From Anaerolineae bacterium (GTDB lineage: Bacteria; Chloroflexota; Anaerolineae; UBA1429), in NCBI GenBank assembly GCA_040772225.1, contig JAXGYO010000002.1, positions 1,725,762 through 1,789,761 of the forward strand: a stretch of 64,000 nt of DNA, written 5' to 3'. Position numbers and translations under genes: made by a program. How positions within the stretch are numbered: the first letter of the stretch is position 1; each line of letters opens with the position of its first letter. Below the pieces are notes generated by a model. The model saw only the letters and a program-made list of their open reading frames with translations. It did not search any database and was not told the origin of the DNA. Shown one piece after another: positions 29,352 to 34,746 of this stretch.

Positions 29352-29545
29352 CCTGGGGTCTGTTTACACTATTGGTGACTATACACTGGCCACAGGGGAG
29401 TGTCAAAGCCAATTCGCAGGCGCCAGGCGCGCAACGAGCCGGGTCCCGTCCTGTCTGTGGGGCACTAATTGCTCTCCACAGACAGCAATGCTACAGTCAT
29501 TTCATGGGTCTATCGCCGCCTGACAGAGATTCATCCGGAGAGTAG

Positions 29546-30796
29546 ATGAAAAACAGGGTGCAACTGACGCTCACAGACATGGCCCACGGCGGCGATGCCG
29601 TCGGGAGATACGAGGGGCAGGTGATCTTTGTTCCCATGGCGCTGCCCGGGGAGACGGTTACTGTGTCCCTTGAGCAGTCCAGAGCATCCTACGCTCGCGG
29701 CAGGCTCATCAGCATCGATCGCCCTTCGGACGCGCGCGTGTCGCCCCCCTGCCCCGTGTATGGGCGCTGCGGTGGCTGCCAGTGGCAGCATATCAGTTAC
29801 CCCGCCCAGCTTGAGTTCAAGCGCGGTATCGTTCGCGACGTGCTTGAGCGTATCGGTGGCGTACAAGAGCCCAGGGTGCAGCCCATGCTGGGCATGGCTG
29901 AGCCATGGCACTACCGCAACCATGTGCAGCTCCGCATCAACCGCTACGGCCAGGCCGGATACTATGCGCTGCAGAGTCACGAGATCATCGCCACTGAGCA
30001 TTGCATGATCGCACACCCTCTTCTCGACACCATGTGGGACGCACACCGCGCCTGCCGAGTCCGCGCCGATGAGCTGGTTCTGCGCGCGGGCACCAATACG
30101 GGGGACCGGCTAGCCCAGATCAGGGGACGCCACGCCGTGACGGTGCGGGACGACCTGTCCGTCCCCTACAGTTGCCTCTATACCGGGCCGTCCGGCAGGC
30201 GACAGACTCTGGCGGGCCGGGAGTACTACACCGAGCGGGTGCTCGATGTGCCCCTGCGCGTATCCTCAGACGCGTTCTTCCAGAACAACACTGCACAGAC
30301 GGAGCGTCTGATCCAGGTCGCGGCGTCCTACCTGCAACTCCAGGATGGCGAATCGCTCCTGGACGCGTATTGCGGCGGAGGCCTGCTGGGCCTCACGTTG
30401 ACGAACACGTCCAACGCTCTGTTCGGCGTAGAGTCCTACAGCGCCTCGGTACGCGACGCGCGTGCCAACGCCAGGGGCCGGGGCACATTCCTGGAGGGCG
30501 ACGTCGCCCGCGTGGTGAAAAGCCAGGAAATGCACGTGGATGCGATCATCCTGGATCCGCCACGCACGGGCTGCACGCCGGAGACCGTGGATGCTCTGGC
30601 GTCCTGCGGGGCCAGCCGGATCGTGTATGTCTCCTGCGATCCGGCGACGCTGGCCCGCGATGTCGCACGATTCAGGGAACATGGGTATGCTCTGGTAGAG
30701 GCCCAGCCGGTGGACATGTTTCCGCAGACCTATCACATCGAGGTGGTGGCGTTGATGTCTAGACCTGAGACACAAGCGAAGAGATGTGCCACATGA
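29546..30796 (+). CDS. rlmD: 23S rRNA (uracil-5-)-methyltransferase RlmD/RumA family (TRAM + 4Fe-4S + SAM methyltransferase)
   Basis: TRAM N-terminus, CPVYGRCGGCQWQH cluster, class I MTase blocks, C-terminal QPVDMFPQTYHIEVVALM. Confidence 0.85.
   Translation: MKNRVQLTLTDMAHGGDAVGRYEGQVIFVPMALPGETVTVSLEQSRASYARGRLISIDRPSDARVSPPCPVYGRCGGCQWQHISYPAQLEFKRGIVRDVLERIGGVQEPRVQPMLGMAEPWHYRNHVQLRINRYGQAGYYALQSHEIIATEHCMIAHPLLDTMWDAHRACRVRADELVLRAGTNTGDRLAQIRGRHAVTVRDDLSVPYSCLYTGPSGRRQTLAGREYYTERVLDVPLRVSSDAFFQNNTAQTERLIQVAASYLQLQDGESLLDAYCGGGLLGLTLTNTSNALFGVESYSASVRDARANARGRGTFLEGDVARVVKSQEMHVDAIILDPPRTGCTPETVDALASCGASRIVYVSCDPATLARDVARFREHGYALVEAQPVDMFPQTYHIEVVALMSRPETQAKRCAT
30704..30758 (+). repeat. 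Direct repeat copy 1 (native 3' end of rlmD)
   Basis: CAGCCGGTGGACATGTTTCCGCAGACCTATCACATCGAGGTGGTGGCGTTGATGTC. Confidence 0.7.
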
Positions 30797-31239
30797 TCTA
30801 CACGGACATGACAAAACTGGCGCTCAGGCTCTGCTATGATGCACACAGAAATCAACTTGACAGAGGCGAGTTACCTTATGTTTACCACCCGCTGCATTTG
30901 GCGGAGCAGATGCACGACGAAAGCACCGTCATTGTCGCGCTGCTGCATGATGTTGTCGAAGATACGGAATATGACCTTGAAGACCTGGAAAGAAGGGGCT
31001 TTGGTAGAGAGGTGCTGGATGCTTTGGCGCTGCTAACTCATGATGATAGCACATGCTATATGGACTATATCGCGGCGATACGGGATAACCCCATCGCAAG
31101 AACGGTCAAGCTTGCCGATCTCAAGCACAACAGCGATCTCTCGCGTCTGAACAAAATCACTCCTGAAGATCGCCAGCGCGTACGCAAATACCAAAGGGCA
31201 CAGGCCATTCTTGAGGATGACGGATACGGCCCCGTGTGA
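30793..31239 (+). CDS. Small alarmone hydrolase (HD-domain (p)ppGpp hydrolase, RelA/SpoT N-terminal HD-like)
   Basis: HD motif AHRNQLDRGELPYVYHPLHLA, ALLHDVVEDT, KLADLKHN. ATGA start/stop overlap with rlmD. Visibly lower G+C and A/T-ending codons than neighbours (not computed). Confidence 0.8.
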   Translation: MIYTDMTKLALRLCYDAHRNQLDRGELPYVYHPLHLAEQMHDESTVIVALLHDVVEDTEYDLEDLERRGFGREVLDALALLTHDDSTCYMDYIAAIRDNPIARTVKLADLKHNSDLSRLNKITPEDRQRVRKYQRAQAILEDDGYGPV

Positions 31240-31303
31240 ATACGTCGCGTCAAGCAGATTCCCCTGGACGACAGCGAGCCGTATTACCTGGCTGCGTAAA
31301 GTC

Positions 31304-31358
31304 CAGCCGGTGGACATGTTCCGGCAGACGCATCGCATCGAGTGCGTCGCGCTTTTAT
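31304..31358 (+). repeat. Direct repeat copy 2 (displaced/degenerate rlmD 3'-end fragment)
   Basis: CAGCCGGTGGACATGTTCCGGCAGACGCATCGCATCGAGTGCGTCGCGCTTTTATC; about 77% identical to copy 1, exactly 600 bp downstream. In frame it encodes QPVDMFRQTHRIECVALLSR*. Confidence 0.7.
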
Positions 31359-31478
31359 CAAGGAACTCGGTTCAGCCATAGGGACGATGGGCGCTGCGCA
31401 GGCAGCTCGCTGGCGTGGCCTGCGGAGCACCCGGGTCGCTCTTTGCAGGGCGAGGAATGCGCAAGTGAAGGGAAAATC

Positions 31479-31844
31479 ATGTTAGGATACGGGGTCTTGA
31501 ATCTCGGCAGCTTTGTGCTCGGGCTGATCGCTCTGATCCTGCCCATTGCGAGCCTGGTCGTGCAGCGCCGGGTGAGCGACACAAGTCGGATCATCTCGCC
31601 CGCTGTGAGTCTGGGCGCTTGTGCCGTTTCACTGTGCCTGCAGCTCTTTTACGGGGCACACCTGGTAAGGATAGAGGATTGGTCTGCGCTCATGGACACT
31701 GCAGACGCGGCCGCCCGCGTCTCTGCGGCTCTGCTGGTGTGCACGCTTGCGCTGAATGCACTCTCACTGGCGGCACACCGCGGGGACGCAGAGTCCGCCT
31801 GGAGCAGCACGACAGGGAGGCGCCCCGATGGACATCTACAGTGA
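31479..31844 (+). CDS. Small integral membrane protein (about 4 TM), hypothetical
   Basis: Hydrophobic 121-aa ORF with a GAAGGG RBS. The long upstream ORF extension looks like low-complexity junk. Confidence 0.5.
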   Translation: MLGYGVLNLGSFVLGLIALILPIASLVVQRRVSDTSRIISPAVSLGACAVSLCLQLFYGAHLVRIEDWSALMDTADAAARVSAALLVCTLALNALSLAAHRGDAESAWSSTTGRRPDGHLQ

Positions 31845-32292
31845 AGCGATAGCGGTCATGGACGAGCAGTTTGGACATGACGTGGTGATGACGCTGGCAA
31901 CCGTAAATGGCAGCCAGGCAAACGTACGTACGGTCAATGCTTACTACCGGGATGGCGCGTTCTACATCACCACCTATGACCTGAGCAGCAAGATGAAGGA
32001 GATCGGTACCAATCCCAGCGTGGCGCTGTGCCACAGCCTGTTCGTAGCACATGGCAGGGGCACCAACCTGGGGAACCCTCTGGCAGCGGGAAATGAGACG
32101 CTTCGAGATGAGCTGCGCCAGGCGTTCTGCGCCTTTTACGACAGGCATGTCAATGAACCGGATCCGCACACCTGCATCCTCAAGGTGGACCTCACGGACG
32201 CAGTTGTCTTTACGGAGAATGCGAAATACGCCATCGACTTTTCCGGCAAGACCGCCGAAAAGACGCCCTTTGTCAATGACATCGTCTATTAG
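31828..32292 (+). CDS. Pyridoxamine 5'-phosphate oxidase-like FMN-binding split-barrel protein
   Basis: PNPOx-like blocks (VVMTLATVNGSQANVRTVNAYYRDGAFYITT). GGAGG RBS before ATG 31828. Confidence 0.7.
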   Translation: MDIYSEAIAVMDEQFGHDVVMTLATVNGSQANVRTVNAYYRDGAFYITTYDLSSKMKEIGTNPSVALCHSLFVAHGRGTNLGNPLAAGNETLRDELRQAFCAFYDRHVNEPDPHTCILKVDLTDAVVFTENAKYAIDFSGKTAEKTPFVNDIVY

Positions 32293-32337
32293 CCCGTGCG
32301 GCGATCCCGACTCATGCAAGATTGGATCTGTGACACT

Positions 32338-32952
32338 ATGATTGTAGCAAAGAAGCACTATACGCTCCTGGAGTCCTACCGCATCCTGGTCGAGGGCCTA
32401 CTTTCGATGCGCTTTCTGTCGCGAGCCAGATCGCAGGGTGACTTGAACCAGGAGTTCATCGAGCGGATCATGCTGGCGGTGACCGAGGTGAACGGTTGCG
32501 CCGCATGCTCCTATGCTCACACAAAGATGGCGCTGGAGAGCGGTATGAGCGCCAGCGAGGTGCAGGCGATGCTTGCCGGGATTATCGACGATGTCCCCGC
32601 AAACGAAGTGGCTGCTATCCTGTTCGCCCAGCACTATGCCGATACAAAAGGAAACCCAAGCCGTGAGGCATGGGAACGCACGGTTGAGCTGTATGGTCAG
32701 CGAATCGCACAGGGCATCCTCGGGGCCATTCGCGCCATCATGATCGGAAACGTCTACGGTATCCCCTTTAGCGCACTGATAGGCCGGATCAAGGGTAGGC
32801 CTGACCCGCAGAGCAGCTTTGGGAGAGAGATTGCGATGCTCCTGGCCTTTGTACCGGCGCTGCCTGTGGCGCTGCTTCACGCTCTGGTAGCAACTCTGGC
32901 GCGGGTTCCCGTGATCTCGTTCTCTGAGCATTCTGCCACAGCGGCCCACTAG
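32338..32952 (+). CDS. Carboxymuconolactone decarboxylase / AhpD-like family protein
   Basis: CMD/AhpD motif TEVNGCAACSYAHT. Confidence 0.7.
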   Translation: MIVAKKHYTLLESYRILVEGLLSMRFLSRARSQGDLNQEFIERIMLAVTEVNGCAACSYAHTKMALESGMSASEVQAMLAGIIDDVPANEVAAILFAQHYADTKGNPSREAWERTVELYGQRIAQGILGAIRAIMIGNVYGIPFSALIGRIKGRPDPQSSFGREIAMLLAFVPALPVALLHALVATLARVPVISFSEHSATAAH

Positions 32953-33063
32953 ACCTGTGCCAAACCTGGCGCCAGGCCGTTCGCGGGGGCACAGGACCCC
33001 ACCTGTCGCCAGACGCGGTCCGAACGCGGCGCACGGAGAAAAGTGAAAACCTGGCCTGGAGCG

Positions 33064-33210
33064 ATGTTAATGCCGACAATCGGGCACGTGGCCGTCTGGT
33101 CAGCCGACATCGAGCACCTGCGGGCGTTCTACACTCGCTACTTTTGTGGCGTCGCAGGGGAAAAGTACACCAACAGGAGCACTGGCTTTCAGTCGTACTT
33201 TGGAGACCGT
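33064..33210 (+). pseudogene. VOC (glyoxalase-like) family gene, N-terminal fragment only
   Basis: MLMPTIGHVAVWSADIEHLRAFYTRYF...GFQSYF then stop. Ends at the left boundary of the IS element. Confidence 0.5.
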
Positions 33211-34746
33211 TGAGAAAGTTGGGGCAGACGGATAACAGAGCCCCATTAGGGCGCAAATTTACGAGTTATGGGGTTCTGCAGGGGTCGGAACGCTGGTCGA
33301 TAGGCTCCTCCAGGCCTGTTTTTGGCCCTCGTGATGCTCGTGGCGCCCGATAGATCGCTCTTGGCGTGTCCATCCGGTCCATAGGCGCACTACTCCCCTC
33401 TGTTCAGATGCTATTGAGAGTCGGGCCTCGTAACGAGACGCCCGTAAGGCCACGGATCAACTGCTTCAAGTTCAGAGCGATCGCGGTCAGGTACGCCTGC
33501 ACAGCGTAGCGCTCCAGAGAGAGATAACGGCAGTCCCTCAAACCATGATACAGCTTGGCTTCTCCGAACTTGCGCTCGATCTGATAGCGTGTGCCCAGCG
33601 CGGGCCGATACCAGGGTTCCTGTATGAGCTGTTGCCAGACCTGTTTGTTGGCATCCTTCTTCCGAGTGCGCGTGCCAACCAGATGGATCGCGTTTCGGAT
33701 ACCGAGTTGCTGCAGGATGTAGTGGATATGTGTGTCATCGTAGCCCCTGTCGGCAACGCAGGTGTCGACGGCCAGACCCTGCGCCAGGTCAGAGCGAATC
33801 AGATCGCACAGGTAGGCGTTGTCAGGACGATTGCCAGTGGAGATATGCAGACTCGTGATCATCTGGGCGCCCTCGTTAAAACTCGCGTGCAGCTTGTAGC
33901 CATAGAACCACTTCTTCCCCCGCTGCGGCTGGCCGTCCTCCCCATGGCAGGTGTAGGTCCCTTTACATCCCCAGCGGGCATCGGGATCGCGGGGTCCCCG
34001 GCCGTCATCCTTGCGCTGCTTCTCTTGCGCCAGATCCACGTCTGCAATGCTATGCGTGCTGTCCACCAACTGAAGGGGGCCAAATTCGATCTTCGCCTCT
34101 CTGGCAATCGCGATGATCTCATCCAGGAGACGCTCGTAGGCAACCACCTTGCCATTCTCCAGAATCCGATTCTTGAATAGGGTCAAAGTCGAGTGGTCAG
34201 GTGCGTGTGCGTCAATGGCCAAGCCCAGGAAATACTTGGCCGGGAGGAAGTAGTTGCAGAACTCTTCCACCTGGCGCTCCGATAGGTCATAGAGGTAGCT
34301 CAGCAACAGCATCTTTAGCAGGATGGCCGGGTCGATAGGAGGGCGTCCGACCTGACCTTTGCCCCTGTAGAACTTGATCAGACGATATGTGAAGCGCTGC
34401 CAGGGCACCAGATCGCGCAGCAGACGCAAGAAATGGTTCTCGGGGACGATGTTAGCGTACAAATAGTCACCGTAGAATGAGTCTGTCTCGGCTTTCTGCA
34501 GCTTCGGCTGAGCCATGGGGTCCTCCTCCGGCGGGATGCCCACAGTCTACCGGTTGTGCTCATCCTGGCAAGGTCATGCACCAGTTTATCAACACTCTCG
34601 AAAATGCCTGTTGATGCCCGACTAATTCTATAGTATAACACTAGACAATTGCGGATGCGTGGTGCTCCCGGCAGGGACGTCTACCATGGGTCTTTCGCCT
34701 TACCCGAATTGCCCTGGCAACTGCCGGGAGATGCTCACGTTCTATG
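33193..34746 (-). mobile_element. IS5-family insertion sequence (boundaries approximate)
   Basis: Contains a DDE transposase. Imperfect terminal inverted repeats GAGACCGTTGAG..GGCAG (left, about 33203) and CTGCC..CTCACGTTCT (right, about 34743). Flanked by VOC-family gene fragments. Confidence 0.55.
33404..34516 (-). CDS. IS5-family DDE transposase (DUF772 N-terminal + DDE_Tnp_1)
   Basis: N-terminal FLRLLRDLVPW block typical of IS5/IS1182-group transposases; DDE region. GGAGGAGG RBS before the ATG. Confidence 0.85.
   Translation of the reverse strand: MAQPKLQKAETDSFYGDYLYANIVPENHFLRLLRDLVPWQRFTYRLIKFYRGKGQVGRPPIDPAILLKMLLLSYLYDLSERQVEEFCNYFLPAKYFLGLAIDAHAPDHSTLTLFKNRILENGKVVAYERLLDEIIAIAREAKIEFGPLQLVDSTHSIADVDLAQEKQRKDDGRGPRDPDARWGCKGTYTCHGEDGQPQRGKKWFYGYKLHASFNEGAQMITSLHISTGNRPDNAYLCDLIRSDLAQGLAVDTCVADRGYDDTHIHYILQQLGIRNAIHLVGTRTRKKDANKQVWQQLIQEPWYRPALGTRYQIERKFGEAKLYHGLRDCRYLSLERYAVQAYLTAIALNLKQLIRGLTGVSLRGPTLNSI

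What the first reader, a model, noticed from the sequence alone, without database searches (positions are those of the whole stretch)
30690..31380. Lower-GC small alarmone hydrolase gene inserted at the 3' end of rlmD, flanked by an imperfect direct repeat that duplicates the rlmD C-terminal codons
The last ~55 nt of rlmD (encoding QPVDMFPQTYHIEVVALM) recur about 77% identical exactly 600 bp downstream, encoding QPVDMFRQTHRIECVALLSR*. The second copy sits immediately after a small HD-domain (p)ppGpp-hydrolase-like gene. That gene overlaps the rlmD stop (ATGA) and has visibly lower G+C and A/T-ending codons than its neighbours. This layout resembles site-specific integration into a gene 3' end, as with tRNA-targeting islands, where the incoming element supplies a replacement 3' end and the displaced end persists. 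Here the cargo is a single stringent-response gene and no integrase is nearby. It may be a minimal or decayed integrative cassette, or a new class of 3'-end-targeting gene cassette.
Basis: seen in the sequence. Interest (0 to 1): 0.7.

Follow-up and report, generated by a model that had tools for sequence, protein, structure and literature searches.

The report
Insertion scar at rlmD 3' end
About 0.6 kb of DNA carrying a small (p)ppApp-hydrolase gene and its own copy of the last ~20 codons of the rRNA methyltransferase gene rlmD was recombined into the end of that gene, stranding the original end just downstream; this is an evolutionary scar at a known insertion hot spot, not a new kind of mobile cassette.

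Summary
The last conserved ~67 nt of rlmD (30695-30762) recur at 31296-31362. Identity is 46/60 ungapped, against a next-best match of 35/60 anywhere in the window. An ATGA-overlapping, lower-GC HD gene lies between the copies.

Relatives lacking the gene (L225, L092) have a single rlmD end that aligns to both copies. That end runs straight into the same spacer and small membrane-protein gene that follow copy 2. Copy 2 is therefore the displaced native terminus.

The "self-contained 3'-end-targeting cassette" reading is not supported:
- The rlmD-HD junction also exists in sister lineages (L004, L001, L009), without a displaced end.
- Copy 1 is a lineage-type rlmD end, not an element mimic.
- The insert's right edge lies inside the truncated second domain of a gene that is 243 aa in relatives.
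- No recombinase is present in the window.

The gene is an Aph1-family (p)ppApp hydrolase, not a stringent-response (p)ppGpp hydrolase.

Best reading: a fragment of an HD-bearing allele was imported into an HD-free locus. The recipient breakpoint sits at the conserved DMFPQT "core" of rlmD. That core is a documented and here re-observed attachment site for tyrosine- and serine-integrase elements. Three unrelated loci show similar displaced ends starting at the same core. Interest is modest.

The parts
29546..30796 (+). rlmD, 23S rRNA (uracil-5)-methyltransferase, 416 aa, intact
   Evidence: Pfam TRAM and tRNA_U5-meth_tr domains. Exact protein is P0121; homologs are named RlmD in Anaerolineae MAGs.
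30695..30762 (+). Copy 1: the working rlmD terminus, codons VE(A)QPVDMFPQTYHIEVVALMSR. It is of the type found in HD-bearing alleles.
   Evidence: the repeat finder D1. 61/68 identical to the L001/L220 ends, 55/68 to empty-site L225, and 50/67 to copy 2.
30763..30792 (+). New C-terminal tail of RlmD (PETQAKRCAT, stop at 30794-30796) and the left edge of the low-GC3 foreign DNA
   Evidence: The tail aligns only with tails of HD-bearing alleles (21-23/32). It is about random (8-11/32) against copy 2 and the empty sites. The compositional switch is visible in the sequence.
30793..31239 (+). Aph1-family small alarmone hydrolase, predicted (p)ppApp hydrolase, 148 aa. Its start overlaps the rlmD stop (ATGA).
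   Evidence: PDB 7SMG '(p)ppApp hydrolase', E 1.6e-28 over the full length. Pfam HD_4. Aph1 signature residues D24, D116, R119, K133 and Y134 are conserved, while R96 is Ala (alignment and PMC10083569). dN/dS is about 0.25 against L004.
31240..31294 (+). In-frame remnant of the second domain of the ancestral 243-aa two-domain gene (IRRVKQIPLDDSEPYYLA)
   Evidence: Colinear BLAST alignment to L004 runs up to window 31294 = L004 4514, which is codon 167 of P0003. Sequences compared. TGA at 31237 replaces TGC of L004.
31294..31296 (.). Right junction of the insert. Homology to HD ends at ...CTG (31292-31294). Homology to rlmD starts at GTAAAG (31296).
   Evidence: CTG precedes both parental breakpoints (L004 4512-4514; rlmD 30692-30694), so a 3-nt microhomology is possible but not proven. 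The junction varies in conspecific L231.
31296..31381 (+). Copy 2: the displaced native rlmD terminus, now decaying. It reads (K)VQPVDMFRQTHRIECVALLSRNSVQP*, with P>R, Y>H and H>R at residues conserved in all 16 RlmD homologs read.
   Evidence: Window 31301-32948 aligns in one piece to L225 4807-6471, starting at L225's only rlmD end, which also aligns to copy 1. 54/67 identical to the L225 and L004 ends. L092 sequence.
31382..31478 (+). Native spacer downstream of rlmD
   Evidence: Colinear with the L225/L092 spacer, though only about 55% identical.
31479..31844 (+). Native small membrane-protein gene (121 aa). In HD-free relatives it directly follows rlmD.
   Evidence: Homologs P0241-P0254. 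Adjacent to rlmD in L224-L229 and L092. Lacks its first 52 or 66 codons in the HD-bearing L004 and L001.

Best explanation
Shown: window 30760-31300 is an insertion relative to HD-free relatives. It supplies a replacement rlmD terminus, a new tail and stop, and a translationally overlapping Aph1-like (p)ppApp hydrolase gene. The native rlmD terminus (copy 2) stays attached to its native downstream DNA and is decaying.

Inferred: the incoming DNA was not a self-sufficient element. It was a fragment of an HD-bearing rlmD allele of the kind still present in sister Anaerolineae. In those lineages the hydrolase gene lies directly after the conserved rlmD end, is 243 aa long in L004, and no displaced end is present. 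That fragment was recombined into an HD-free resident locus. The left side was resolved within rlmD homology. The right side was joined between codon 167 of the hydrolase gene and a point 8 nt upstream of the conserved rlmD 'core' (CCAGCCGGTGGACATGTT, encoding QPVDMF). This single event both truncated the hydrolase's second domain and duplicated the last ~67 nt of rlmD.

The recipient breakpoint coincides with a sequence used as an attachment site by tyrosine- and serine-integrase elements in other bacteria. Displaced rlmD ends in three unrelated loci begin at the same place. I therefore think the core itself was involved, through a break or strand exchange made there by an integrase acting in trans, or through repair of such a break using the HD-bearing template. 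The enzymology is unresolved.

Today the structure is an immobile scar. RlmD stays intact, and the hydrolase is probably co-expressed with it and detoxifies (p)ppApp.
For: Empty site:
- L225 (22 contigs of that lineage) and L092 have rlmD, spacer and membrane ORF in that order.
- Their single rlmD end (L225 4807-4865) aligns to both window copies.
- Window 31301-32948 is colinear with L225 4807-6471.

An HD-bearing allele exists elsewhere:
- L004, L197, L001, L220 and L009 share the same rlmD-tail-HD junction in the same synteny, without copy 2.
- The three HD-bearing lineage types have three different right junctions: membrane-ORF codon 53 in L004, codon 67 in L001, and the glyoxalase gene start in L009.

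Allele types of the two copies:
- Copy 1 and its tail are of the HD-bearing type. Copy 2, its tail and the spacer are of the HD-free type.
- The HD-bearing L009 and L004 each carry an end close to the HD-free allele of their own group: L009 vs L006 about 30/34 and L004 vs L225 about 28/34, against about 22/34 for L004 vs L009 (my count from the sequences printed).
- The primary HD acquisition was therefore after the conserved end, not at the core.

Right junction and age:
- The window hydrolase is a truncated derivative. Homology to L004 runs to codon 167 and then stops at the junction.
- Copy 2 is 46/51 identical to L225 over its conserved part, while the adjacent spacer is about 55% identical. 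It therefore lost function well after these lineages split.

Exchange at this locus:
- Inter-lineage recombination is directly visible. rlmD 30080-30580 is 90% identical to L093 but 68-71% to group 2, and the flanks show the reverse.

The core is special:
- L067 (Veillonella), L156 and L171 have RlmD only 31-39% identical to each other and to the window. Each has a displaced end 1.1-1.8 kb downstream, and the similarity starts within about 18 nt of GAYATGTTYCC.
- Tyrosine integrase genes (L108, L150, L236) and large serine recombinase genes (L206, L212, L235) abut the same core.
- The literature describes rumA/rlmD as an integration hot spot (PMC4701971, PMC5633684, PMC13651849).

Stability: the arrangement is fixed in conspecific contigs L230-L234.
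Against: - No donor lineage is identified. Synonymous divergence of the HD gene and the rlmD 3' part to L004/L001 (0.58-0.68) is about the same as for the flanks (0.44-0.58). There is thus no phylogenetic signal of a recent import.
- The phylogeny of window, L004, L001 and L225 is star-like, so gain and loss cannot be ordered.
- The left crossover cannot be located.
- The microhomology at the joint is only 3 nt and needs an extra C.
- Involvement of the core rests on the coincidence of breakpoints in four cases, drawn from a survey of only about 230 loci. Those loci were themselves selected through rlmD.
- No recombinase is found in the window, and the rest of the genome was not available.
Confidence: 0.5

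Rival explanations
1. Decayed self-integrating element. A complete integrative element carrying the hydrolase gene integrated once, site-specifically, at the rlmD core in a common ancestor, supplying copy 1 as its attP-borne replacement end. Independent internal deletions later removed the integrase and the rest. In the window the deletion ran up to attR. In L004, L001 and L009 it ran through attR.
For: - The layout is attL/attR-like: an 18-nt identical block followed by imperfect similarity running to the gene end.
- Integrase-bearing elements do sit at exactly this core elsewhere.
- The closest non-Anaerolineae homologs of the hydrolase lie in ICE-like regions of gut-metagenome contigs, next to Tn916-type Int/Xis, FtsK and resolvase genes.
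- The insert has lower GC.
Against: - Between the core and the tail, HD-bearing alleles carry their own group's native sequence rather than a shared element-borne end. The foreign DNA therefore starts after the conserved end, not at the core.
- It requires at least three independent deletions, one of them ending within 8 nt of the core.
- It also requires either precise loss in L225 and L006 or long-standing polymorphism.
- Copy 2 is better preserved than a fragment that has been non-functional since the split of these lineages. My estimate, not a tool result: 54/67 observed against about 46 expected from the spacer divergence.
- No arm-type repeats like those next to the L108, L150 and L236 integrases are seen.
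Confidence: 0.2
2. Plain homology-facilitated illegitimate recombination, or a Campbell-type RecA event, between an HD-bearing fragment and the HD-free locus, with no role for any site-specific enzyme. The position of the joint next to the core is chance.
For: - One junction is homologous and one is illegitimate-looking, inside an ORF, with possible CTG microhomology.
- Both allele types coexist in the clade.
- A recombination patch in rlmD shows DNA exchange at this locus.
- The mechanism is established, and it has been proposed for analogous 'displacement' arrays (PMC3240628; PMC5361080).
Against: - Four independent displaced ends all begin within about 18 nt of the same conserved core, out of a 1.2-kb gene.
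- According to the papers retrieved, HFIR integrates the non-homologous end by illegitimate recombination and is rare. That it usually deletes recipient DNA rather than duplicating it is my recollection, not something read here.
Confidence: 0.17
3. An active, integrase-less mini-cassette, like a CIME or an integron cassette. The unit [core - replacement end - cargo] would excise and integrate by core-by-core recombination, catalysed in trans by an rlmD-specific integrase encoded elsewhere.
For: - One- or two-gene inserts are flanked by core-initiated repeats in four unrelated lineages. Their cargo is unrelated: Aph1-like hydrolase; DUF3795 plus DUF7000; a YadA-like adhesin; two unknown ORFs.
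- In L156 a complete DUF7000 gene ends 8 nt before the displaced core.
Against: - The same rlmD-HD junction occurs in relatives without a second core.
- The window unit ends in a truncated, stop-containing ORF.
- Copy 2 is decaying at core-adjacent residues and varies among conspecifics.
- No integrase lies in the window.
- No second genomic location of any of these units was seen.
Confidence: 0.08
4. Local tandem duplication or a chance similarity, with no foreign DNA involved.
For: The spacing is exactly 600 bp and the repeats are direct.
Against: - The match is 46/60 against a background maximum of 35/60.
- Copy 2 is followed by HD-free-type DNA, not by a second HD gene.
- The insert has foreign composition.
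- Relatives have empty sites.
Confidence: 0.02

Closest known systems
Genomic islands and prophages that integrate into the 3' end of a gene and regenerate it, leaving a displaced fragment (tyrosine-integrase islands at tRNA/tmRNA genes; Islander, PMC4383910)
   Same: The target gene is regenerated, and a displaced 3' fragment marks the far end of the insert. The block of similarity begins at a defined point and runs to the gene end. Relatives have empty sites.
   Different: There is no integrase and the insert is only about 0.54 kb. The regenerated end is a lineage-type rlmD sequence rather than an element mimic. The right end of the insert lies inside a truncated ORF. The same cargo junction exists in relatives without a displaced fragment.
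rumA/rlmD-targeting ICEs and prophages (single large serine integrases in streptococci and clostridia, PMC4701971, PMC5633684; rlmD among frequent att sites, PMC13651849). Also the tyrosine-integrase elements seen here in L108, L150 and L236.
   Same: The same target gene and the same conserved stretch (DMFPQT codons). The insertion lies at the extreme 3' end.
   Different: Serine-integrase ICEs give 2-21 bp direct repeats and swap the 3' parts of rumA and the integrase gene with a frame change. Here the repeat is 67 nt, in frame and imperfect, and no integrase is present. The host is an Anaerolineae (Chloroflexota), not a Firmicute.
CIMEs, cis-mobilizable elements: att-flanked remnants of ICEs that lack recombination and transfer genes (from my own knowledge of the streptococcal ICESt literature; not read here)
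   Same: A short insert flanked by att-like repeats, with no recombinase.
   Different: No cognate integrase or parental ICE was found. One flank abuts a truncated gene. Mobility is untested and unlikely given the decay of copy 2.
Homology-facilitated illegitimate recombination and 'C-terminal displacement' arrays (Rhs, T6SS effector-immunity modules; PMC5361080, PMC3240628)
   Same: Incoming DNA is anchored by a conserved upstream gene segment. The new 3' part plus cargo goes in, and the old 3' part is pushed downstream as an orphan. No recombinase gene is needed.
   Different: The target is a housekeeping rRNA methyltransferase with a single orphan end, not a polymorphic toxin locus. The recipient breakpoint coincides with a known att core.
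Aph1, monofunctional (p)ppApp hydrolase of Bacteroides caccae (PDB 7SMG; PMC10083569)
   Same: Full-length alignment at E 1.6e-28, similar size (148 vs 149 aa), HD motif present, and 5 of 6 family signature residues conserved, including the specificity pair D24/R119.
   Different: R96 is replaced by Ala. There is no adjacent (p)ppApp-synthetase toxin. The ancestral form in this clade had an extra C-terminal domain of unknown function. Activity is untested.

Membership tests
Site-specific integrative element (integrase-bearing island or prophage at a gene 3' end) | Integrase/recombinase gene inside the element | tested here: not met
   The insert holds only the 148-aa hydrolase gene and a 55-nt remnant. 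No tyrosine or serine recombinase ORF was found anywhere in the 64-kb window with a profile built from 9 integrases and with phmmer using serine recombinases.
Site-specific integrative element (integrase-bearing island or prophage at a gene 3' end) | Direct att repeats bounding the insert, with similarity starting at a fixed point and running to the end of the target gene | tested here: met
   Repeats at 30695-30762 and 31296-31362, with an 18-nt identical block followed by imperfect similarity.
Site-specific integrative element (integrase-bearing island or prophage at a gene 3' end) | Empty site in related genomes | tested here: met
   L225/L092 in group 2 and L006 in group 1.
Site-specific integrative element (integrase-bearing island or prophage at a gene 3' end) | The replacement 3' end is element-borne, that is, the same in all hosts of the element and distinct from the hosts' own sequence | tested here: not met
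   HD-bearing alleles carry the end typical of their own group: L009 vs L006 about 30/34, L004 vs L225 about 28/34, L004 vs L009 about 22/34 (my count). GC3 stays host-like up to about 30760 (and the sequence).
Site-specific integrative element (integrase-bearing island or prophage at a gene 3' end) | Both element ends are defined att junctions, not breaks inside genes | tested here: not met
   The right end lies at codon 167 of a gene that is 243 aa in L004.
rumA-targeting serine-integrase ICE (PMC4701971) | 2-21 bp direct repeats and reciprocal exchange of the 3' parts of rumA and the integrase gene, with a change of frame | tested here: not met
   The repeat is 67 nt and in frame, and no serine recombinase is present. 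Genuine examples of that arrangement were seen in L206, L212 and L235.
CIME (att-flanked, recombinase-less remnant mobilisable in cis) | Flanked by attL and attR of a known ICE family, with a cognate integrase able to act on them | not testable with these tools
   The repeats are present, but no cognate integrase or parental ICE was found. Only 64 kb of the genome was available.
Product of homology-facilitated illegitimate recombination | One junction within homology and the other an illegitimate joint at microhomology, with a donor arrangement existing elsewhere | tested here: inconclusive
   The donor-type allele exists (L004, L001, L009). The right joint lies inside an ORF with a possible CTG microhomology plus one extra base. 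The left crossover cannot be mapped.
Integron gene cassette | attC recombination site and a neighbouring IntI/attI platform | tested here: not met
   No inverted-repeat attC-like structure flanks the gene, and no integrase is present.
Aph1 family of (p)ppApp hydrolases (PMC10083569) | HD-domain fold with full-length similarity to Aph1 | tested here: met
   7SMG, E 1.6e-28, residues 7-142 vs 8-143 without gaps. Pfam HD_4 at 29.2 bits against a cut-off of 27.2.
Aph1 family of (p)ppApp hydrolases (PMC10083569) | Signature residues D24, R96, D116, R119, K133, Y134 | tested here: met
   Window residues D23, D115, R118, K132 and Y133 match. R96 corresponds to A95. R96 is the one signature residue the paper does not place near the active site (alignment).
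Aph1 family of (p)ppApp hydrolases (PMC10083569) | Hydrolyses (p)ppApp and not (p)ppGpp | not testable with these tools
   Requires an enzyme assay.
[quoted passage not shown] | N-terminal TRAM domain plus C-terminal U5-methyltransferase domain ending in the DMFPQT.H.E motif | tested here: met
   Pfam hits. C-terminal motif compared with 16 homologs.

The most novel reading that the evidence does not exclude
The conserved DMFPQT-coding core at the end of rlmD would be a cross-phylum docking site for integrase-less one- or two-gene units of the form [core - replacement rlmD end - cargo]. These units would be moved in trans by rlmD-specific tyrosine or serine integrases, working like CIMEs or integron cassettes on a housekeeping gene. 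The window insert, the Veillonella adhesin insert (L067), the DUF3795/DUF7000 insert (L156) and L171 would all be members.
Probability: 0.1. Interest if true: 0.65.

Novelty: new member of a known kind. Interest (0 to 1): 0.3.

Why it matters
Mostly as a clean worked example. One housekeeping gene end shows an empty site, a displaced native terminus, a truncated imported gene and a separate gene-conversion patch. Together these document how uncultured Anaerolineae exchange and acquire DNA.

The case extends the known rumA/rlmD insertion hot spot of Firmicutes to Chloroflexota.

It also shows that annotation of the cargo as a stringent-response (p)ppGpp hydrolase would be misleading. The gene belongs to the (p)ppApp-specific Aph1 family, which is linked to protection from (p)ppApp-synthesising toxins.

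The one thread that could grow is the recurrence of short, recombinase-less inserts beginning at the same rlmD core in unrelated bacteria.

Tried and rejected
- Genome-contig scan with RlmD. It later served for the survey of displaced ends.
- Metagenome-contig scan with the 26-nt rlmD-end pattern. The motif is so conserved across phyla that only one close relative (L197) came back. A consequence is that the 90% identity of copy 2 to the L004 end cannot be used for dating, because unrelated loci reach 90-92%.
- Phage GenBank collection searched with the rlmD end: no match.
- Dating the import by synonymous divergence. The phylogeny is star-like, and values for the HD gene and for the flanks are similar, so there is no resolution.
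- My first impression that the tails of HD-free and HD-bearing alleles are homologous up to the HD start. The alignment did not bear this out, at 8-11/32, and I dropped it.
- Co-option of copy 2 as an intrinsic terminator. There is a hairpin at 31327-31348 followed by CUUUUAU. However, the same hairpin exists in the functional L092 end, the z-score is only -1.5, and the U-run differs in conspecific L231.
- An apparent deletion in the HD gene of conspecific L231. It is a run of N, a scaffold gap.
- Similarity between the DNA upstream of HD in Anaerolineae and the Macro-domain gene that precedes it in the ICE-like contigs: none.
- Pfam and NCBIfam gave nothing for the second domain of the 243-aa form, or for the membrane ORF.
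Full report
**1. The observation**

The sequence is as described.
- rlmD occupies 29546-30796, with TRAM and uracil-5-methyltransferase domains.
- A 148-aa HD-domain gene occupies 30793-31239, and its ATG overlaps the rlmD stop as ATGA.
- The repeat finder reports 30703-30762 and 31303-31362 as a 60-nt direct repeat with 77% identity and spacing 600. It is the longest repeat in the 6 kb examined.
- Scoring the 60-mer against every position of both strands gives 46/60 for copy 2. The background is mean 15.5, sd 3.6, and the next best match is 35.
- With one 1-nt indel the similarity starts at GTAGAG/GTAAAG, so the copies are 30695-30762 and 31296-31362.
- GC falls to about 0.51 between 30700 and 31200, against 0.60-0.67 on either side.
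- The HD gene has GC3 0.58, against 0.78 for rlmD.

**2. Organism and relatives**

The RlmD protein is identical to P0121, which is carried on a 2.14-Mb NCBI contig. Its homologs are from Anaerolineae/Chloroflexota MAGs.

Close relatives fall into two groups by RlmD sequence:
- Group 1: P0122 (L093), P0125 (L006-8), P0127 (L009).
- Group 2: P0123 (L002-5, L197), P0124 (L001), P0126/P0259 (L092, L224-229).

By flanking genes the window belongs with group 2. Synonymous divergence among window, L004, L001 and L092 is 0.4-0.6 for every pair, so the phylogeny is star-like.

All these loci share the order MiaB-like gene, rodZ-like gene, rlmD, then a variable stretch, then rpsO-pnp.

**3. Copy 2 is the displaced native terminus**

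In L092 and L224-L229 rlmD is followed directly by a spacer and a small membrane-protein gene. That lineage is represented by 22 contigs, including MAG GCA_964651255.1. The membrane-protein gene begins MFGYSLLNLGSLVLGLIA, and window 31479 begins MLGYGVLNLGSFVLGLIAL.

BLAST gives two alignments to L225:
- window 29400-30759 to L225 3505-4865;
- window 31301-32948, in a single piece, to L225 4807-6471.

The one rlmD end of L225 (4807-4865) therefore matches both window copies, and 30760-31300 is extra. This is a clean empty site.

The membrane ORF is a real gene with homologs P0241-P0254.

Copy 2 reads (K)VQPVDMFRQTHRIECVALLSRNSVQP*. It has P>R, Y>H and H>R at residues conserved in all 16 homologs read, so it is no longer constrained.

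**4. The insert is a fragment of an allele that exists elsewhere**

- L004/L197/L002-5, L001/L220-223 and L009 all have the hydrolase gene right after rlmD. The rlmD tail and junction are homologous in all of them, and none has a second rlmD end.
- In L004 the gene is 243 aa with a second domain (P0003). The same two-domain form occurs in gut-metagenome homologs (P0045, P0015).
- The window aligns colinearly with L004 up to 31294, which is L004 4514, codon 167 of that gene.
- The 55 nt after the window's TGA still read IRRVKQIPLDDSEPYYLA, against RHYVKHLPLDDIGMYYLT in P0003. The TGA replaces a TGC codon.
- The window gene is therefore a truncated derivative, and its truncation point is the junction with copy 2.
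- L004 and L001 have different right junctions. Their membrane ORF lacks its first 52 and 66 codons respectively. In L009 the gene is followed directly by the glyoxalase gene.

**5. Which copy belongs to which allele**

- Over the 68 conserved nt, copy 1 is closest to the HD-bearing L001/L220 ends (61/68). Its 32-nt tail matches only tails of HD-bearing alleles (21-23/32, against 8-11/32 for the others).
- Copy 2 is closest to the ends of L004 and of the empty-site L225 (54/67). It continues into HD-free-type DNA.
- Between the core and the tail, the HD-bearing L009 and L004 each carry a sequence close to the HD-free allele of their own group. L009 vs L006 is about 30/34 and L004 vs L225 about 28/34, while L004 vs L009 is about 22/34 (my count).
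- The foreign DNA in HD-bearing alleles therefore begins after the conserved rlmD end, near 30760, where GC3 also drops. It does not begin at the DMFPQT core.
- The first acquisition of the hydrolase gene in this clade thus needed no replacement end. The duplication in the window is a second, later event.

**6. Age**

- Over its first 51 nt copy 2 is 46/51 identical to L225. The adjoining non-coding spacer is only about 55% identical.
- From that spacer divergence I estimate that a fragment non-functional since the lineages split would match at about 46 of 67 positions. The observed figure is 54 (my estimate). The evidence is modest, but it points to displacement after the split.
- Conspecific contigs (L230 at 98.9%, L231-L234 at about 97%) all carry the same arrangement. 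Extra differences are concentrated in the remnant and junction.

**7. Recombination at this locus is directly visible**

- rlmD 30080-30580 is 90.2% identical to L093 (group 1), but only 68-71% identical to group 2.
- The 5' and 3' parts are 87-89% identical to group 2 and 71-75% identical to L093.
- Synonymous divergence agrees: 1.2-1.7 to group 2 in the patch, against 0.4-0.7 outside it.

**8. The cargo**

- The best solved relative is 7SMG, '(p)ppApp hydrolase' (Aph1), at E 1.6e-28, full length and without gaps.
- The paper that defined the family lists the signature D24, R96, D116, R119, K133 and Y134, with D24 and R119 determining adenine specificity (PMC10083569).
- The window protein has D23, D115, R118, K132 and Y133 at the matching positions, and Ala at the R96 position.
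- dN/dS against L004 is about 0.25, so the gene is maintained.
- Outside this clade the closest homologs (60-68% identical) lie after a Macro-domain gene. The regions contain ADP-ribosylglycohydrolase, Tn916-type Int/Xis, FtsK and resolvase genes.
- The Anaerolineae copies are monophyletic in a neighbour-joining tree. They have kept GC3 of 0.46-0.58 in hosts where rlmD has GC3 of 0.74-0.78.

**9. The core is a hot spot**

Three further loci have a degenerate second terminus downstream of the intact one:
- L067, Veillonella sp. CHU110: 76 nt, 76% identity, spacing 1382. The cargo is a YadA-like adhesin.
- L156: 32 nt, 78% identity, spacing 1114. The cargo is DUF3795 plus a complete DUF7000 gene. 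Insert GC is 0.47, against 0.69 for rlmD.
- L171: 52 nt, 83% identity, spacing 1838. The cargo is two unknown ORFs.

Their RlmD proteins are only 31-39% identical to each other and to the window's. In all four cases the similarity of the displaced copy begins within about 18 nt of GAYATGTTYCC.

Recombinase genes abut the same core in other loci:
- Tyrosine integrases lie 110-120 nt after the rlmD stop in L108, L150 and the viral contig L236. They have Arm-DNA-bind_4, SAM_3 and Phage_integrase domains, and L108 and L150 are 44% identical to each other.
- In L108 a GC-rich rlmD switches to an AT-rich replacement end right after the core.
- Large serine recombinase genes end 55-63 nt from the core in L206 and L212. 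One is also present in L235.

This agrees with published work:
- rumA is the hot spot for single serine-integrase ICEs in streptococci and clostridia, with 2-21 bp repeats and exchange of the 3' parts (PMC4701971; PMC5633684).
- rlmD is among the frequent att sites of phage-ICE tandems (PMC13651849).

No recombinase ORF is present in the window.

**10. Interpretation**

Shown:
- There is an insertion with an empty site in relatives.
- The native end is displaced.
- The cargo is foreign and truncated.
- An HD-bearing allele exists in sister lineages.
- A hot-spot core is used by integrases elsewhere.

Inferred: a fragment of an HD-bearing allele was recombined into an HD-free resident locus. 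The recipient-side break lay at the core, and the donor-side break lay inside the hydrolase's second domain. CTG precedes both breakpoints, and one extra C is present.

The event resembles homology-facilitated illegitimate recombination, and the C-terminal displacement described for Rhs and T6SS loci (PMC5361080). The coincidence of four independent breakpoints with an integrase attachment core suggests that a break or strand exchange at the core started it. I cannot tell whether that was an integrase acting in trans or a repair event.

That claim covered both a decayed self-integrating cassette and a new class of 3'-end-targeting cassette.

**11. Verdict**

The feature is a recombination scar at a known hot spot, in a phylum where that hot spot had not been described in the papers I read. 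The cargo is better named an Aph1-like (p)ppApp hydrolase. Interest is modest at 0.3. The recurrent recombinase-less inserts at the rlmD core are the only aspect that might repay a systematic survey.

Noticed in passing
window 30080-30580 (inside rlmD): A patch of about 500 bp is 90.2% identical to the group-1 relative L093, but only 68-71% identical to the group-2 relatives. Those group-2 relatives match the rest of the gene and its flanks at 85-92%. The patch is an imported gene-conversion tract, which makes the window RlmD equidistant (about 80%) from two groups that are 70% identical to each other.
   Followed up: yes
window 33043-34600: An IS with a DDE transposase (33404-34543, minus strand; DUF772 and DDE_Tnp_1 domains) sits where relatives L001 and L002 have about 4.7 kb of DNA. 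That DNA comprises the 3' part of a glyoxalase gene, a Dak2/DegV gene, DUF1295, DUF2177 and a 291-aa gene. Only the first ~150 nt of the glyoxalase gene remain (33050-33202), and alignment resumes at 34600. This looks like an IS-associated deletion.
   Followed up: partly
L067 7241-8698 (Veillonella sp. CHU110); L156 1196-2341; L171 2054-3943: Three unrelated loci have a degenerate second copy of the rlmD terminus 1.1-1.8 kb downstream of the intact one. Between the copies lie one or two cargo genes and no recombinase. The cargo is a YadA-like adhesin, DUF3795 plus DUF7000, and two unknown ORFs respectively. All displaced copies start at the same conserved core as in the window.
   Followed up: partly
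L108 423-1861; L150 650-1938; L236 92-1427; L206 43-1663; L212 7287-8854; L235 9607-11566: Related tyrosine integrases (L108 and L150 are 44% identical, with arm-binding domains) lie 110-120 nt after the rlmD stop, in convergent orientation. In L108 a GC-rich rlmD switches to an AT-rich replacement end just after the core. Repeated TTTGCCACC/GGTGGCA-like motifs lie downstream. Large serine recombinase genes end 55-63 nt from the same core in L206 and L212.
   Followed up: partly
window 31327-31357 (inside copy 2): A terminator-like hairpin, GACGCA...TGCGTC, is followed by GCGCUUUUAU. It is the only such site in 30600-31900. The hairpin is also present in the functional L092 terminus, the fold z-score is only -1.5, and the U-run differs in conspecific L231. 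There is thus no good evidence of co-option.
   Followed up: yes
L004 4460-4744 (P0003 residues ~150-243); also P0045 and P0015: Some members of this hydrolase family carry an extra C-terminal domain of about 95 aa, with no Pfam or NCBIfam match. In gut-metagenome contigs the gene follows a 363-aa Macro-domain gene, and in L098 it precedes an ADP-ribosylglycohydrolase gene. The regions are ICE-like.
   Followed up: partly
region between rlmD and rpsO in window, L001, L004, L006, L009, L010, L225: The stretch between rlmD and rpsO-pnp differs in gene content in almost every lineage examined, from two tiny ORFs in L010 to about 8 kb in L001. It behaves as a small variable islet.
   Followed up: no
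L232 position 1 (= window 31303): A conspecific metagenome contig begins exactly at the first base of copy 2. This is probably an assembly break caused by the repeat, but it could hide strain-level variation at the site.
   Followed up: no
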